IMG/VR virus record: IMGVR_UViG_2703718868_000001
Reading direction: 5' to 3' (one strand)
Source: a virus
Taxonomy: Duplodnaviria > Heunggongvirae > Uroviricota > Caudoviricetes
Length of the DNA: 6,855 nucleotides
Shown: one piece after another, positions 808 to 6,846 of the stretch
How positions within the stretch are numbered: position 1 is the stretch's first letter
Layout: each line of letters starts with the position of its first letter
Notes under the pieces: generated by a model
The model's input: only the letters and a program-made list of their open reading frames with translations
What the model was told of the DNA's origin: nothing
The model's database searches: none
Translations under genes and position numbers: made by a program

Positions 808-1089
808 ATGATACTCCGGCAGTGTGCGGGAACGATGACAGTCGAAAGCATCGGCAGTCTGATTGGCCGTAGTGGGGCTGCCGTCAGGACGAAAGCGCGG
901 GAACTGGGTATCTGCATGATGTTACGGGGTGATTATCACCAGTCAGCCAAATGTTCACAGCGTGATATTGAGCTGGCGCGGCAACTGCATCAGCGTGGCG
1001 TACCCCGACGGGAAATTGCCGAAAAGTTTGGGATGAAGTTGGGCGCAGTGAATAACTACGTTTATTTCGACAGGAGGGTTCAGGCGTGA
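808..1089 (+). CDS. small putative HTH DNA-binding protein (hypothetical)
   Basis: ORF-track frame 685-1089 overlaps the 3' end of the upstream gene; ATG at 808 (G-rich GGGCGG upstream) is the most plausible start, with GTG 772 (overlapping the upstream TGA) or ATG 837 as alternatives. Product has two HTH-like segments (SIGSLIGRSGAAVRTKARELGI and REIAEKFGMKLGAVNNYV). Stop TGA 1087-1089. Confidence 0.5.
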   Translation: MILRQCAGTMTVESIGSLIGRSGAAVRTKARELGICMMLRGDYHQSAKCSQRDIELARQLHQRGVPRREIAEKFGMKLGAVNNYVYFDRRVQA

Positions 1090-1391
1090 GGGTGAGAATT
1101 TATATCGCCGGTCCGATGACGGGATATGAAAATTTCAACCGTGAGGCGTTTCACAGGGCGGAAGAAGCACTGAAACGGGAAGGGCATACCGTTTTAAACC
1201 CGGCAGTACTTCCGGACGGACTGACACAGCCACACTACATGGATATTTGCATGGCGATGATACGCTGCGTGGATGCGATTTACATGCTGAAAGGCTGGCA
1301 GCGGTCGGCAGGCGCTAAGGCAGAACTGGCACTGGCGGAGAAACTGGGACATGCGGTTATTTTCCAGGAGGCAACCAGTGAGAAAAATTAA
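1086..1391 (+). CDS. DUF4406-like protein (nucleoside 2-deoxyribosyltransferase-like fold)
   Basis: GTG at 1086 overlaps the upstream stop (GTGA) with AGGAGG at 1072-1077 (8-nt spacer). N-terminus MRVRIYIAGPMTGYENFNREAF matches the I-Y-I-A-G-P-M-T-G motif I associate with DUF4406 / deoxyribosyltransferase-like proteins (from memory). 101 aa, stop TAA 1389-1391. Confidence 0.65.
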   Translation: MRVRIYIAGPMTGYENFNREAFHRAEEALKREGHTVLNPAVLPDGLTQPHYMDICMAMIRCVDAIYMLKGWQRSAGAKAELALAEKLGHAVIFQEATSEKN

Positions 1392-1410
1392 TTATCAGAC
1401 GCTACGTGAG
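1365..1410 (+). repeat. copy 1 of a duplicated RBS + start + N-terminal coding module (CAGGAGGCAACCAGTGAG...)
   Basis: The 18-nt string caggaggcaaccagtgag at 1365-1382 is identical to 2328-2345; the next 28 nt match at 20 of 28 positions by manual alignment (38 of 46 overall). It holds the SD (AGGAGG) and GTG start of the first Ea22-like gene. Confidence 0.8.
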
Positions 1411-2028
1411 ATAGCAAAACTGGCAACCCAGGGCGAATGGGTCGCATTCATTTCGCCGGGCACTGATACATATGCGGTGCATACGCCGGGGGATGAACGT
1501 TGCGGAGACATTATCAAATGGCCTGGCTTTGATGACCAGAAAAATGCAGAGAACAACGCAGAATTTATTGCAGCTTTCAACCCTGAAGTAGTACAGGCAC
1601 TGCTGGATGAACGGGAAGCCCAAAGCAAACGTATTGCAGAGCTGGAAGCTAATCTTGTGGCGCTGGCGGCGGAGAATGCACTTGCTCGTAAAGCAGTTCA
1701 GGCATTCTGCGATGTTGTTGGCGACAACACCGAGGTTATCTGCGAGGAGGTTGGGAGAGATGGCGTTCTGGTTATTTTGGAGGCCATGAAGGCAACAGGA
1801 AATATGCCAGCCACCGATGCTTTCCTGTCTGAAGTGCGGGCGCTGGGGGTGGATGCTGCTATAGAAGCTGCAAAAAATCTGGTGGCCCAAGAATATGAGT
1901 ATAAGGATTTCAAAGCGGCGCAGAGTGATTGCTGTATGCACCCTGGTTCAGACCTGATAGGGAAGGTTGAAATGACTGAGTGGTTAGTTGACTTTGCTGC
2001 CCAGCTTCGCAAAGGAGTTCAGTCATGA
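1378..2028 (+). CDS. Ead/Ea22-like family protein (long paralog)
   Basis: GTG at 1378 in frame with ORF 1351-2028, preceded by AGGAGG 1366-1371. N-terminus VRKINYQTLREIAKLATQGEW resembles the conserved N-terminal motif of lambdoid Ead/Ea22-like proteins (from memory); coiled-coil-like middle (EAQSKRIAELEANLVALAAENALARK). Stop TGA 2026-2028. Confidence 0.7.
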   Translation: MRKINYQTLREIAKLATQGEWVAFISPGTDTYAVHTPGDERCGDIIKWPGFDDQKNAENNAEFIAAFNPEVVQALLDEREAQSKRIAELEANLVALAAENALARKAVQAFCDVVGDNTEVICEEVGRDGVLVILEAMKATGNMPATDAFLSEVRALGVDAAIEAAKNLVAQEYEYKDFKAAQSDCCMHPGSDLIGKVEMTEWLVDFAAQLRKGVQS

Positions 2029-3691: not shown

Positions 3692-3973
3692 TTACTGAGC
3701 ACCAATAATCCTGAAGATGTAATCCTTGAAGATGAGAGCCAGAGCGGCAGCAACAATAAACCACTGGAGTCGATCAAACTTGGTTTCCAGCTTGTCCAGG
3801 CGCTTATCAACCGATATTAGCTGGTTTTGCAAAGAATTAAAGCGACCATCAATCTCACGACGCAGGTTATCAACGCTTTCCTGTGTTGCCAGGTGTTGCA
3901 TGTTCTGCTGGCGATGGAGTAAAGCATTCAACACATCACTGGTGCTGAACTCAATTTTTTTGTCATCACTCAT
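3692..3973 (-). CDS. 93-aa coiled-coil protein with C-terminal transmembrane anchor (XhlA-like architecture; function unknown)
   Basis: ATG on the minus strand (plus 3971-3973) preceded by AGGAGG (complement of 3979-3984, 5-nt spacer); stop TAA (3692-3694). Product has heptad-like region NLRREIDGRFNSLQNQLISVDKRLDKLETKFDRL then hydrophobic tail WFIVAAALALIFKDYIFRIIG. It is the only convincing minus-strand gene in the window and has its own terminator. Confidence 0.7.
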   Translation of the reverse strand: MSDDKKIEFSTSDVLNALLHRQQNMQHLATQESVDNLRREIDGRFNSLQNQLISVDKRLDKLETKFDRLQWFIVAAALALIFKDYIFRIIGAQ

Positions 3974-5496: not shown

Positions 5497-5856
5497 ATGC
5501 TCATAGATTTGGTTTTACCTTACCCGCCGACGGTGAACACTTACTGGCGACGCCGTGGCAGCACATATTTTGTCTCAAAAGCCGGGGAGCGTTATCGCCG
5601 GGCAGTGGCGCTTATTGTTCGCCAGCAGCGACTGAAATTAAGCCTGTCCGGACGGCTGGCAATAAAAATTATTGCAGAACCACCGGATAAGCGCCGCCGT
5701 GACCTGGACAATATTCTGAAAGCGCCGCTGGATGCGCTGACGCATGCGGGAGTGCTTATTGATGACGAGCAGTTTGATGAAATCAATATTGTACGTGGTC
5801 AGCTTGTTCCTGGTGGTCGGTTGGGTGTGAAGATTTACAAAATTGAGAGTGAGTGA
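5497..5856 (+). CDS. rusA: crossover junction endodeoxyribonuclease RusA (Holliday junction resolvase)
   Basis: ATG at 5497 with AAGAGG 5485-5490. Product aligns by eye with E. coli RusA: LPYPPTVNTYWR vs LPWPPSNNRYYR; PDKRRRDLDNILKAPLDALTHAG vs [30 protein letters not shown] vs KGGRLEL. 119 aa. Confidence 0.9.
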   Translation: MLIDLVLPYPPTVNTYWRRRGSTYFVSKAGERYRRAVALIVRQQRLKLSLSGRLAIKIIAEPPDKRRRDLDNILKAPLDALTHAGVLIDDEQFDEINIVRGQLVPGGRLGVKIYKIESE

Positions 5857-5864
5857 GCGTAAAT

Positions 5865-6395
5865 ATGATATATCCGGAAATTACAGGCAAAAGCGGCGAA
5901 CATTTACGCCTGAACACGCTGGAAGCAGTCTGGATCCAGGGGAAATTACGGATGTGGGGGCGGTGGTCGTATATCGGTGGGGGTAAATCCGGAAATATGT
6001 TTAACCGGTTACTGGTTTCGAAAAAGCTGACGAAAACAGCAGTTAATGAGGTTTTACGCAGAATGAAGAAATCCGGGCTGGATAAACCGGAACTTGAGGC
6101 ATTTTTTCGGGATATGACCAGAGGGAAGCAGAAGAGCTGGTTGTCACATTGTACAGACACAGAGGCGTTGATTATTGATCGCGTTATCAGTGAGGTGCTT
6201 GGGGAATATCCCGGGCTAATCAATATTCTCCGGCAAAGGTACGAAGGACGGGGAATGAGTAAGAGAAAAATGGCAGAATGTTTAAATCGTACTCACCCGG
6301 AATGGTGTTTCAGCACATGTGAGAAACGTATTGCAGGTTGGTTAGCCGTGGCTGAACACATGCTTTATGTACCTATGCACGATTCATTTCGATAA
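5865..6395 (+). CDS. late-gene antiterminator Q, QuuD (DLP12)-type, with an N-terminal extension
   Basis: Immediately downstream of rusA (the canonical nin-region position) and upstream of a strong intrinsic terminator. Several segments align by eye with my recollection of QuuD: LRMWGRWSY vs LERWGAWAA; CTDTEALII vs CDDDAMII; RIAGWLAVAEHML vs KAEGIIEGMLMAL. Start at ATG 5865; GTG 5853 overlapping the rusA stop is an alternative. Stop TAA 6393-6395. Confidence 0.65.
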   Translation: MIYPEITGKSGEHLRLNTLEAVWIQGKLRMWGRWSYIGGGKSGNMFNRLLVSKKLTKTAVNEVLRRMKKSGLDKPELEAFFRDMTRGKQKSWLSHCTDTEALIIDRVISEVLGEYPGLINILRQRYEGRGMSKRKMAECLNRTHPEWCFSTCEKRIAGWLAVAEHMLYVPMHDSFR

Positions 6396-6490: not shown

Positions 6491-6514
6491 AGCCACCGGA
6501 AGGTGGTTTTTTTT
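6491..6514 (+). terminator. rho-independent terminator (tR'-like)
   Basis: Stem CCACC (6493-6497) / GGTGG (6502-6506) with GGAA loop, extendable by G-U pairs, followed by T8 (6507-6514). Confidence 0.7.
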
Positions 6515-6637
6515 GTGTCCGTAATATACAGCAGCGCAATAAATTCGCTGGTGGTTATTAATACCGTTCTTTCAGCTTGCTGGCTTTTTCGACAAGAGTT
6601 ATTGGTGTGTCACGTTAACCGGAAAAAGGAAAAAGAC

Positions 6638-6835
6638 ATGCTGAAACAGCAGGATATGACCGAAACCGCCAGGGCAGTGTTTAATGAATTAAGCGTCACC
6701 GAACCGGCGACAGTCGGGGAGATTGCACAGAATACGTACCTTTCACGCGAACGCTGCCAGCTAATACTGACCCAGCTTGTTATGGCGGGTCTGGCAGACT
6801 ATCAGTTCGGTTGTTACAGACGCCTTCTGTCCTGA
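6638..6835 (+). CDS. small (65 aa) putative winged-helix DNA-binding protein (FaeA/PapI-like pattern), hypothetical
   Basis: ATG at 6638 with AAGGA at 6626-6630 (7-nt spacer); ORF-track frame 6503-6835 contains it. Product MLKQQDMTETARAVFNELSVTEPATVGEIAQNTYLSRERCQLILTQLVMAGLADYQFG has an xxEIAxxxxxxxxxxxxxLxxLxxAG pattern like small wHTH regulators. Stop TGA 6833-6835. Confidence 0.5.
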   Translation: MLKQQDMTETARAVFNELSVTEPATVGEIAQNTYLSRERCQLILTQLVMAGLADYQFGCYRRLLS

Positions 6836-6846
6836 AGGCTTTTTTA
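6822..6846 (+). terminator. rho-independent terminator after the small wHTH gene
   Basis: Stem GCCTTC (6822-6827) / GAAGGC (6834-6839) with 6-nt loop containing the stop codon, followed by TTTTTT (6840-6845). Confidence 0.65.

What the first reader, a model, noticed from the sequence alone, without database searches (positions are those of the whole stretch)
1086..1391. Phage-borne DUF4406 / nucleoside 2-deoxyribosyltransferase-like protein as a candidate nucleotide-targeting accessory enzyme
The N-terminal MRVRIYIAGPMTG motif is the nucleotide-binding signature of the deoxyribosyltransferase-like fold, whose members cleave or transfer N-glycosidic bonds of nucleosides and nucleotides. In an accessory operon of a prophage, a 101-aa standalone member could remodel the nucleotide pool, modify DNA precursors, or degrade nucleotide-based immune signals. 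No role is established for this family in phage-host conflict to my knowledge, so this is inference.
Basis: inference. Interest (0 to 1): 0.45.

Follow-up and report, generated by a model that had tools for sequence, protein, structure and literature searches.

The report
Prophage DUF4406 deoxynucleotide-glycosidase-like gene
A small, strongly conserved E. coli prophage gene encodes an ordinary member of the catalogued but never-tested DUF4406 family, which has the fold and catalytic glutamate of enzymes that cut the base off deoxynucleotides. The gene is common and already annotated, and its substrate and role remain unproven.

Summary
The ORF at 1086-1391 (+) is real. It scores Pfam DUF4406 at E=8.5e-37, shows dN/dS of about 0.08 among prophage alleles, and is 100% identical to an E. 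coli prophage gene that RefSeq already names "DUF4406 domain-containing protein". DNA-level homologues occur in 1300 of 5426 complete E. coli genomes, and the family has more than 12,000 clusters at 50% identity.

An AlphaFold model (pLDDT 91) matches nucleoside deoxyribosyltransferases, MilB/BcmB and DNPH1. Alignments place Tyr6, Ser74 and Glu80 on the β1 tyrosine, the 5'-phosphate-site serine and the glutamate nucleophile of DNPH1.

Two features are atypical. The third triad residue (Asp) is Cys55 in this branch, although it is Asp in most other DUF4406 proteins. The C-terminal third of the canonical fold is missing.

In other phages DUF4406 is repeatedly fused to, or abuts, dATP/dGTP pyrophosphohydrolase domains (MazG-like, PF04447, PF18909). 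This mirrors the characterised DmtZ-DutZ pair.

The best reading is a dNMP N-glycosidase or phosphodeoxyribosyl-transferase that remodels the nucleotide pool (confidence about 0.45). There is no evidence for a defence or anti-defence role.

The parts
1086..1391 (+). DUF4406 (PF14359) gene, 101 aa including the GTG start; stop codon at 1389-1391
1072..1077 (+). AGGAGG Shine-Dalgarno sequence 8 nt upstream of the GTG start. The start overlaps the upstream stop (GTGA, 1086-1089).
   Evidence: read directly from the sequence
1101..1103 (+). Codon for Tyr6 in strand β1. It aligns with Tyr13 of Rcl/DNPH1, the residue that orients the Glu and excludes 2'-OH sugars.
   Evidence: 124 Tyr and 19 Phe among representatives; role of the Tyr as stated in PMC12884076
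1248..1250 (+). Codon for Cys55, at the position of the triad Asp (Asp69 of Rcl; Asn in T. brucei NDT)
   Evidence: C 101 and D 20 of 149; Asp in about 70 of 80 loci of other DUF4406 branches
1305..1307 (+). Codon for Ser74, invariant. It aligns with Ser87 of Rcl (5'-phosphate site) and with Ser of the SPGTHIE motif in BcmB, where nucleoside transferases have Asp.
1323..1325 (+). Codon for Glu80, the predicted covalent nucleophile. It aligns with Glu93 of Rcl and the catalytic Glu of T. brucei NDT.
   Evidence: (140/142)
808..1089 (+). Upstream helix-turn-helix 'DNA-binding protein' gene in the same operon (RefSeq start; the longest ORF starts at 685)
1378..2028 (+). Downstream Ead/Ea22-like gene that overlaps the 3' end of the DUF4406 gene

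Best explanation
The gene encodes a minimal four-stranded member of the N-(deoxy)ribosyltransferase-like superfamily, expressed from the early-right operon of a Rac/lambda-like prophage. It most likely acts on 2'-deoxynucleoside 5'-monophosphates.

Proposed mechanism:
- Glu80, held by Tyr6, attacks C1' and forms a covalent deoxyribosyl-5-phosphate-enzyme intermediate, releasing the free base.
- Water (hydrolase) or another base (phosphodeoxyribosyl transferase) resolves the intermediate.
- Ser74 at the N-cap of helix 3 and the GPM[TS]G loop at the N-terminus of helix 1, possibly with Asn18 and Arg19, hold the 5'-phosphate.

The net effect would be to remove or exchange particular deoxynucleotides in the pool during phage replication.

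Shown: the family, the fold, conservation and alignment of Tyr, Ser and Glu, purifying selection, and the linkage to dNTP pyrophosphohydrolases in other phages. Inferred: the substrate class, the chemistry, the oligomeric state and the biological purpose.
For: Family: Pfam DUF4406 at 8.5e-37.

Fold: AF2 model with pLDDT 90.9 and pTM 0.84.
- Top Foldseek PDB hits are all NDT, MilB, BcmB or DNPH1, with TM 0.70-0.76.
- A profile search of PDB finds T. brucei NDT at 2.4e-4 and BcmB at 0.07, with the SxGxxxE motif aligned.

Active-site alignment:
- hhalign against rat Rcl (sequence checked against 2KHZ) pairs Y6-Y13, S74-S87 and E80-E93.
- S74 is present in 142/142 and E80 in 140/142 family representatives.
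- Most other DUF4406 branches carry the full Tyr-Asp-Ser-Glu set.
- PMC12884076 states that NDTs hold the 5'-OH with Asp/Asn, whereas nucleotide hydrolases have small uncharged residues there, and that the Tyr excludes ribo-substrates.

Selection: dN/dS is 0.084, and Y6, C55, S74 and E80 are retained in all 47 distinct prophage proteins.

Domain-fusion and adjacency evidence (Rosetta-stone logic):
- Mycobacteriophage Schatzie gp159 is DUF4406 plus a MazG-like PRA-PH domain. The next gene is PF18909, a dATP/dGTP diphosphohydrolase domain.
- An IMG/VR ORF fuses DUF4406 to PF04447, a dATP/dGTP pyrophosphohydrolase.
- PF04447 or PF18909 genes lie near DUF4406 in 7 of 44 dereplicated groups, and are fused or abutting in 5.
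- PF04447 lies within 1.3 kb in 2 of 15 groups of the Cys-type branch.
- BFVD models named as dATP/dGTP diphosphohydrolase proteins carry the fold.
- This matches the characterised DmtZ-DutZ/DUF5664 arrangement, in which dATP goes to dAMP and then to adenine plus dR5P (PMC12884076).
Against: - No DUF4406 protein has been assayed.
- This branch has Cys55 where the general-acid Asp sits. DNPH1 and Rcl structures that trap substrate use Asp-to-Asn or Asp-to-Ala mutants (entries listed).
- The protein ends after β4. It therefore lacks the segment that supplies second-subunit active-site residues in NDT and DNPH1.
- The fusion evidence comes mainly from the Asp-type branch, and this window has no pyrophosphohydrolase partner.
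- PF05014 scores below its threshold.
- The closest solved structure, 1t1j, is itself of unknown function.
- Residue equivalences come from sequence and profile alignments. I could not inspect model coordinates.
Confidence: 0.45

Rival explanations
1. It is a classical nucleoside 2'-deoxyribosyltransferase, as many phage annotations say. It would swap bases between deoxynucleosides (not nucleotides) for salvage.
For: PHROG 355 and many GenBank phage records use this name. The best Foldseek hits are NDTs. Tyr6 and Glu80 are conserved. Some phage PF05014 NDTs are active transferases (bioRxiv 10.1101/2025.10.22.683976).
Against: PF05014 scores only 16.6 bits against a cut-off of 28.8. The 5'-OH-binding Asp of NDTs is an invariant Ser here, as in DNPH1 and BcmB. 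The C-terminal residues that complete NDT sites are absent. The partners found are enzymes that produce dNMPs, not nucleosides.
Confidence: 0.12
2. It is a non-catalytic or very slow nucleotide-binding protein (a sponge, sensor or regulator). It would keep the binding pocket while having lost efficient catalysis through the Asp-to-Cys change and the truncated fold.
Against: Glu80, Ser74 and Gly76 are almost invariant, and dN/dS is 0.08. This fits an active site at least as well as a binding site. Sister branches have the full triad. No sponge-like genomic context was seen.
Confidence: 0.15
3. It is an anti-defence enzyme that destroys a nucleotide immune signal or a toxic nucleotide (for example dITP/dIMP-type, NAD-derived or viperin-type molecules) by cleaving its N-glycosidic bond.
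For: It lies in an accessory early region of a prophage. It has N-glycosidase-type catalytic residues. A Glu-only site could suffice for good leaving groups (my inference).
Against: There is no PADLOC match. No recurrent neighbour is a known defence or anti-defence gene. The family sits in replication and recombination modules of very diverse phages. Tyr6 argues against ribo-substrates such as NAD derivatives (PMC12884076).
Confidence: 0.08
4. It works with DNA cytosine-C5 methyltransferases. It could clear 5-methyl-dCMP or related modified nucleotides (a DNPH1- or MilB-like sanitising role), or it could act on DNA itself.
For: The C5 methylase (PF00145) is the most frequent neighbour: 14 of 44 groups within 4 kb, and 5 within 100 nt plus one at 132 nt. 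It is adjacent in 2 of 15 Cys-type groups. In phage N15, gp57 overlaps gp58, annotated as a possible cytosine-specific methylase. In Acidovorax phage Alfacinha1 the match lies under a methylase annotation. The nearest characterised relatives act on cytosine or modified pyrimidine nucleotides (MilB, BcmB, DNPH1).
Against: I computed no background frequency of methylases in phage early regions. There is no methylase in this window. The association may simply reflect shared placement in early modules.
Confidence: 0.1

Closest known systems
DNPH1 / Rcl (2'-deoxynucleoside 5'-phosphate N-hydrolase; PDB 2KHZ, 4FYH, 8QHR)
   Different: About 20% identity. Asp69 is replaced by Cys55. The C-terminal β5/α5 part with the second phosphate-binding Ser is missing. 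101 aa against about 150. Activity is untested.
MilB / BcmB / BlsM CMP and hydroxymethyl-CMP N-glycosidases (PDB 4JEM, 4OHR, 4JEN, 5VTO)
   Different: MilB prefers ribo-substrates and, from my own knowledge, has Phe at the β1 position. Here that residue is Tyr, which PMC12884076 links to exclusion of ribo-substrates. MilB and BcmB work in antibiotic biosynthesis, not in phages.
Nucleoside 2'-deoxyribosyltransferases (PF05014; T. brucei 2A0K, C. thermalis 8PQ*, L. leichmannii 1F8X)
   Same: Best sequence and Foldseek matches. Tyr and Glu are conserved.
   Different: The PF05014 score is below threshold. Ser stands in place of the 5'-OH-binding Asp. The C-terminal active-site residues are absent.
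DmtZ of Z-genome actinophages (PMC12884076)
   Same: A phage-encoded NDT-superfamily protein acting on a dNMP (dAMP hydrolase and dR5P transferase). It is fused or adjacent to a dNTP diphosphatase (DutZ) and to DUF5664, the same kind of partner found for DUF4406.
   Different: DmtZ is about 145 aa with five strands and the triad Tyr6/Asn77/Glu103. The authors found no Pfam model for it. It belongs to PurZ0 phages with diaminopurine DNA, and this prophage shows no such pathway.
DUF1937 (PDB 1T1J, P. aeruginosa PA1492)
   Different: 18% identity, a separate Pfam family, and of unknown function, so it gives no functional transfer.
Retron Ec86/Sen2 NDT-like effector (host defence)
   Same: Same superfamily label; an N-glycosidase-type effector reported to deplete adenine derivatives (PMC11482910).
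   Different: It is a host defence toxin associated with a reverse transcriptase and msDNA. There is no PADLOC match for this protein and no retron nearby.

Membership tests
Pfam DUF4406 (PF14359) | HMM score above the gathering threshold over the full domain | tested here: met
   125.9 bits against a cut-off of 22; residues 4-93 match profile positions 2-91 of 91
Pfam DUF4406 (PF14359) | Family signature G-P-M-[TS]-G after β1 and G-W-x-x-S-x-G-A-x-x-E before and within helix 3 | tested here: met
   Present in the sequence. Column counts: G9 144/144, S74 142/142, G76 140/142, E80 140/142
N-(deoxy)ribosyltransferase-like superfamily (NDT/DNPH1/MilB) | Flavodoxin-like α/β fold | tested here: met
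N-(deoxy)ribosyltransferase-like superfamily (NDT/DNPH1/MilB) | Catalytic Glu nucleophile in the helix after the S/D-x-G motif | tested here: met
   E80 aligns with Glu93 of Rcl and the Glu of T. brucei NDT and BcmB
N-(deoxy)ribosyltransferase-like superfamily (NDT/DNPH1/MilB) | Tyr (deoxy-specific) or Phe (ribo) in strand β1 | tested here: met
   Tyr6 aligns with Tyr13 of Rcl; 124 Tyr and 19 Phe in the family
N-(deoxy)ribosyltransferase-like superfamily (NDT/DNPH1/MilB) | Third triad residue Asp (or Asn) in the middle helix | tested here: not met
   Cys55 aligns with Asp69 of Rcl and the Asn of T. brucei NDT. The position is Asp in other DUF4406 branches
N-(deoxy)ribosyltransferase-like superfamily (NDT/DNPH1/MilB) | C-terminal β5/α5 segment that gives active-site residues to the neighbouring subunit | tested here: not met
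   The model ends after β4 (residues 90-93) and residues 98-101 are disordered. Targets are 130-160 aa, with only about half covered (TMt about 0.5)
N-(deoxy)ribosyltransferase-like superfamily (NDT/DNPH1/MilB) | Homo-oligomer with composite active sites | not testable with these tools
   Only monomer prediction was available
Nucleoside 2'-deoxyribosyltransferase (PF05014, EC 2.4.2.6) | PF05014 score above the gathering threshold | tested here: not met
   16.6 bits against a cut-off of 28.8
Nucleoside 2'-deoxyribosyltransferase (PF05014, EC 2.4.2.6) | Asp/Asn that bind the free 5'-OH | tested here: not met
   Invariant Ser74 sits at the Asp position. The rule is as stated in PMC12884076
DNPH1-type dNMP N-hydrolase | Small uncharged Ser at the 5'-phosphate site (Ser87 of Rcl) | tested here: met
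   S74 aligns with S87
DNPH1-type dNMP N-hydrolase | Base release from dNMPs | not testable with these tools
   Needs an enzyme assay. The only indirect support is fusion or adjacency to dNTP pyrophosphohydrolases
DmtZ (Z-genome phages) | Occurs with PurZ0/DutZ in diaminopurine phages and has no Pfam match | tested here: not met
   This protein matches PF14359. The window and the surrounding prophage show no PurZ or Dut genes. DmtZ properties are from PMC12884076
Known anti-phage defence or retron NDT effectors | Match to a PADLOC model or a defence-system context | tested here: not met
   No PADLOC hit for the protein. Two neighbouring ORFs gave only weak HTH-type matches to CARF/Csa3/SWIM models at E of about 1e-3 to 1e-2

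The most novel reading that the evidence does not exclude
The enterobacterial and Vibrio-phage branch of DUF4406 (Tyr-Cys-Ser-Glu) is a new catalytic variant of the NDT superfamily. In this variant a minimal four-stranded domain with Cys in place of the general-acid Asp would irreversibly destroy a specific non-canonical or modified deoxynucleotide. Candidates are 5-methyl-dCMP produced around phage C5-methylases, or purine dNMPs or dIMP produced by dNTP pyrophosphohydrolases. This would give temperate phages a pool-sanitising or counter-defence function that is currently unrecognised in about a quarter of E. coli genomes.
Probability: 0.12. Interest if true: 0.65.

Novelty: new member of a known kind. 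Interest (0 to 1): 0.33.

Why it matters
The gene itself is ordinary. It is already in RefSeq and Pfam and is present in about 24% of complete E. coli genomes. Its family, however, is very large, almost confined to phages and prophages, under strong constraint, and has never been assayed.

The recent demonstration that a phage NDT-like protein (DmtZ) hydrolyses dAMP next to a dNTP diphosphatase makes the parallel DUF4406-pyrophosphohydrolase fusions found here a concrete, cheap hypothesis to test. A positive result would annotate thousands of phage genes. It would also show that canonical-DNA temperate phages prune deoxynucleotide pools at the N-glycosidic bond.

Tried and rejected
- Direct PDB sequence search with the protein found nothing. 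NCBIfam found nothing.
- Literature searches for DUF4406, PF14359, 'nucleoside 2-deoxyribosyltransferase + prophage + lambdoid' and related terms returned only passing mentions or nothing. No functional study exists.
- PADLOC gave no defence-family match for the protein.
- Domain fusions among the 52 long proteins closest to the query were sporadic (HTH, DUF551, DUF4752, an anticodon-binding domain and others) and uninformative.
- A second profile search of the large protein database returned only the same close enterobacterial relatives.
- One representative carries an N-terminal HAD-like domain (PDB 2OBB-like, PHROG 1238). It is a single case and I gave it no weight.
- DUF6378, which is fused to DUF4406 in 3 groups, could not be tied to DUF5664 by hhalign or to any solved structure. 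I did not count it as a pyrophosphohydrolase.
- Asp53 compensating for the missing triad Asp: rejected, because only 56 of 101 Cys55 sequences have Asp53.
- Rfam and the promoter/terminator scans showed nothing specific at the locus.
- I could not inspect model coordinates or predict a dimer, so pocket geometry is not verified.

Full report
**Observation**

The ORF at 1086-1391 on the + strand is present exactly as described. It encodes 101 aa from a GTG start, and the product begins MRVRIYIAGPMTG. An AGGAGG ribosome-binding site lies 8 nt upstream. The start codon overlaps the stop of the upstream helix-turn-helix gene (GTGA). The next gene, an Ead/Ea22-like protein, starts at 1378, inside the 3' end. 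The gene is therefore one link in a tightly packed operon.

Pfam assigns the protein to DUF4406 (PF14359) at E=8.5e-37. Only sub-threshold matches go to DUF1937 and Nuc_deoxyrib_tr. PHROG 355, labelled 'nucleoside 2-deoxyribosyltransferase', scores 7e-48.

**Origin and prevalence**

Positions 685-2100 are 100% identical to a prophage of E. coli FHI_NMBU_11. There RefSeq annotates this very CDS (WP_032298829.1) as 'DUF4406 domain-containing protein'.

The prophage is Rac/lambda-like. Its gene order is integrase, excisionase, exonuclease and kilR; then repressor, cro and YdaT; then replication genes; then DUF1627, HTH, DUF4406 and Ead/Ea22 paralogues; then DUF968, RusA and the Q antiterminator. 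This places the gene in the accessory stretch between the replication genes and Q.

DNA-level homologues occur in 1300 of 5426 complete E. coli genomes. In every listed record they are annotated 'DUF4406 domain-containing protein'. The family has 12,347 clusters at 50% identity with E<=1e-3. It is found in phages of Vibrio, Arthrobacter, Mycobacterium, Gordonia, Pseudomonas, Rhizobium and others.

Among 51 distinct alleles from E. coli-type prophages dN/dS is 0.084. The gene is real, constrained and common.

**Fold**

An AlphaFold2 model built on 63 homologues has pLDDT 90.9 and pTM 0.84. It shows a β-α-β-α-β-α-β unit with four strands.

- Foldseek against the PDB returns only superfamily members at the top. 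These are T. brucei and C. thermalis nucleoside deoxyribosyltransferases, MilB, BcmB and DNPH1, with TM 0.70-0.76 normalised to the query.
- 1T1J shares the motif G-W-x-x-S-x-G-x-x-x-E.
- Targets are 130-160 residues long and only about half of each is covered. DUF4406 lacks the C-terminal β5/α5 portion of the canonical fold.

**Active site**

A family profile finds T. brucei NDT at E=2.4e-4 and BcmB at 0.07. Tyr, Ser/Asp and Glu are aligned in both.

I recalled the rat Rcl sequence from memory and verified it as identical to PDB 2KHZ. The substrate-trapping entry 4FYH differs from it by D69N. Profile alignment against Rcl pairs Tyr6 with Tyr13, Cys55 with Asp69, Ser74 with Ser87 and Glu80 with Glu93.

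Counts across 150 family representatives:

| Position | Residues observed |
|---|---|
| 74 | Ser 142/142 |
| 80 | Glu 140/142 |
| 6 | Tyr 124, Phe 19 |
| 55 | Cys 101, Asp 20, remainder small residues |

In actinophage and other high-GC branches the position equivalent to 55 is Asp in about 70 of 80 loci, so the full Tyr-Asp-Ser-Glu set is present there. All 47 distinct E. coli-type proteins keep Tyr6, Cys55, Ser74 and Glu80.

According to PMC12884076, the β1 Tyr orients the Glu and excludes ribo-substrates. The same paper states that nucleoside transferases hold the 5'-OH with Asp/Asn, whereas nucleotide hydrolases have small uncharged residues there. By these rules the protein looks 2'-deoxy-specific and 5'-phosphate-specific.

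The Cys-for-Asp change and the missing C-terminal segment are the two real departures from the canonical enzymes. Asp53 does not systematically compensate, because only 56 of 101 Cys55 sequences have it.

**Context and partners**

Around close relatives the neighbours vary (DUF977, HTH proteins, Ead/Ea22, integrase, portal). They are typical of phage early or accessory regions. In other phages the gene sits among helicase, Cas4-type exonuclease, RusA, RNase H-like, DnaQ-like and methylase genes.

A more informative signal came from domain fusions and direct neighbours:

- Mycobacteriophage Schatzie gp159 is DUF4406 fused to a MazG-like PRA-PH domain. The next gene, gp160, is PF18909, a dATP/dGTP diphosphohydrolase N-terminal domain formerly called DUF5664 (E=1.3e-23). 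In phage LittleE the same two domains are separate genes.
- In 80 diverse IMG/VR loci, which fall into 44 groups at 75% identity, one ORF fuses DUF4406 to PF04447, a dATP/dGTP pyrophosphohydrolase formerly called DUF550 (5e-19).
- In the same set, PF04447 or PF18909 genes lie near DUF4406 in 7 groups and are fused or abutting in 5.
- In a sample of the Cys-type branch, PF04447 lies within 1.3 kb in 2 of 15 groups.
- BFVD models named as dATP/dGTP diphosphohydrolase proteins also contain the fold.

This is the arrangement of the only characterised phage enzyme of this kind. DmtZ is an NDT-superfamily dAMP hydrolase and deoxyribose-5-phosphate transferase. It is fused or adjacent to the dATP/dGTP diphosphatase DutZ and accompanied by DUF5664 (PMC12884076). 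DmtZ is not itself a DUF4406 protein, since its authors report no Pfam model for it.

**Second recurrent neighbour**

The commonest neighbour family overall is the cytosine-C5 DNA methylase (PF00145). It lies within 4 kb in 14 of 44 groups. Five of these are within 100 nt on the same strand and one more is at 132 nt. It is adjacent in 2 of 15 Cys-type groups. In phage N15, gp57 overlaps gp58, annotated as a possible cytosine-specific modification methylase. In Acidovorax phage Alfacinha1 the match lies under a methylase annotation. I did not compute a background rate, so this is a lead and not a result.

**Mechanism proposed**

Glu80, positioned by Tyr6, attacks C1' of a 2'-deoxynucleoside 5'-monophosphate. 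The phosphate is held by Ser74 and the GPM[TS]G loop. The base leaves, and the covalent intermediate is resolved by water or by another base. The chemistry, substrate class and oligomeric state are inferred.

What is shown is the family, the fold, the aligned and conserved residues, purifying selection and the partner genes. I put this explanation at about 0.45.

Rivals:

| Rival | Confidence |
|---|---|
| Classical nucleoside transferase | 0.12 |
| Catalytically weak nucleotide binder | 0.15 |
| Methylase-linked cleaner of modified dNMPs | 0.10 |
| Anti-defence enzyme acting on immune nucleotides | 0.08 |

For the anti-defence rival there is no PADLOC match for the protein and no defence-type context.

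**Comparison with what is known, and verdict**

The protein is a bona fide DUF4406 member and belongs to the NDT/DNPH1/MilB superfamily by fold and by the Tyr and Glu residues. It should not be filed as a nucleoside 2'-deoxyribosyltransferase: PF05014 is below threshold and the 5'-OH Asp is absent. It should not be filed as DNPH1 or DmtZ either.

No experimental work on DUF4406 was found. The finding is correct as an observation, and the gene is already annotated as DUF4406 in public databases. The proposed conflict role is unsupported. The nucleotide-pool idea gains indirect support.

Interest is moderate to low for this particular gene. It is somewhat higher for the family-level hypothesis, which can be tested directly.

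Noticed in passing
window 3692-3973 (- strand), terminator-like hairpin at 3687-3670: A lone minus-strand ORF of 93 aa has a coiled-coil-like N-terminal part and a hydrophobic C-terminal tail. It is followed directly by a strong GC-rich hairpin and a T-run. It has no Pfam, PHROG, NCBIfam or PADLOC match. At the corresponding slot the otherwise similar E. coli FHI_NMBU_11 prophage carries a RelE/ParD toxin-antitoxin pair, so this looks like a variable moron slot.
   Followed up: partly
IMG/VR loci L098-L177 and L178-L254; phage N15 (L004 3001-4309): Cytosine-C5 DNA methylase (PF00145) is the most frequent neighbour of DUF4406 genes. It lies within 4 kb in 14 of 44 dereplicated groups, with five within 100 nt and one at 132 nt. 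It is also adjacent in 2 of 15 Cys-type groups, and in N15 gp57 overlaps gp58. No background rate was computed.
   Followed up: partly
L163 5001-5660, L166 3929-4591, L142 5001-5636, L168 4890-5630, L173 17-625 and similar loci: DUF4406 is fused to DUF6378 (PF19905, E about 1e-20 to 1e-23) in 7 loci belonging to 3 groups. DUF6378 has no known function and showed no detectable relation to DUF5664 or to any solved structure.
   Followed up: partly
DUF4406 family, position 55 of the window protein (window 1248-1250): There is a lineage-specific switch at the triad position. It is Asp in actinophage and high-GC branches (motifs such as YxRRD and CMRAD). It is Cys in the enterobacterial and Vibrio-phage branch (YMDIC), with occasional Gly, Thr or Ala.
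   Followed up: yes
window 1378-2028 and about 2341-2685: Two Ead/Ea22-like paralogues (PF13935) have similar N-termini (INYQTLREIAK and IDYQALREAAQ). They flank a 109-aa ORF of unknown function (2025-2354, PHROG 16670). DUF551 and other small phage ORFs follow.
   Followed up: no
window 5853-6395 and 6503-6839: The Q-type antiterminator is of the DUF1133 kind (1e-110, with a weaker Phage_antitermQ match). Downstream lies a small ORF with a weak winged-helix (TrmB-like) match, ending in a terminator-like hairpin at 6822-6839.
   Followed up: no
protein P0261 (metagenomic representative, 241 aa): This is a single DUF4406 protein with an N-terminal HAD-phosphatase-like domain (DxDxT motif; PDB 2OBB-like at E=1.5e-3; PHROG 1238). 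It may be another nucleotide-metabolism fusion, but it was seen only once.
   Followed up: partly
GenBank phage records (for example Arthrobacter phages TaylorSipht gp52 and Tweety19 gp28; L002, L003): Standalone DUF4406 proteins are named inconsistently in deposited phage genomes. Names include 'deoxycytidylate deaminase', 'MazG-like pyrophosphatase', 'hydrolase' and 'nucleoside deoxyribosyltransferase'. Pfam finds only DUF4406 in them, apart from one marginal PF05014 hit in Tweety19 gp28.
   Followed up: yes
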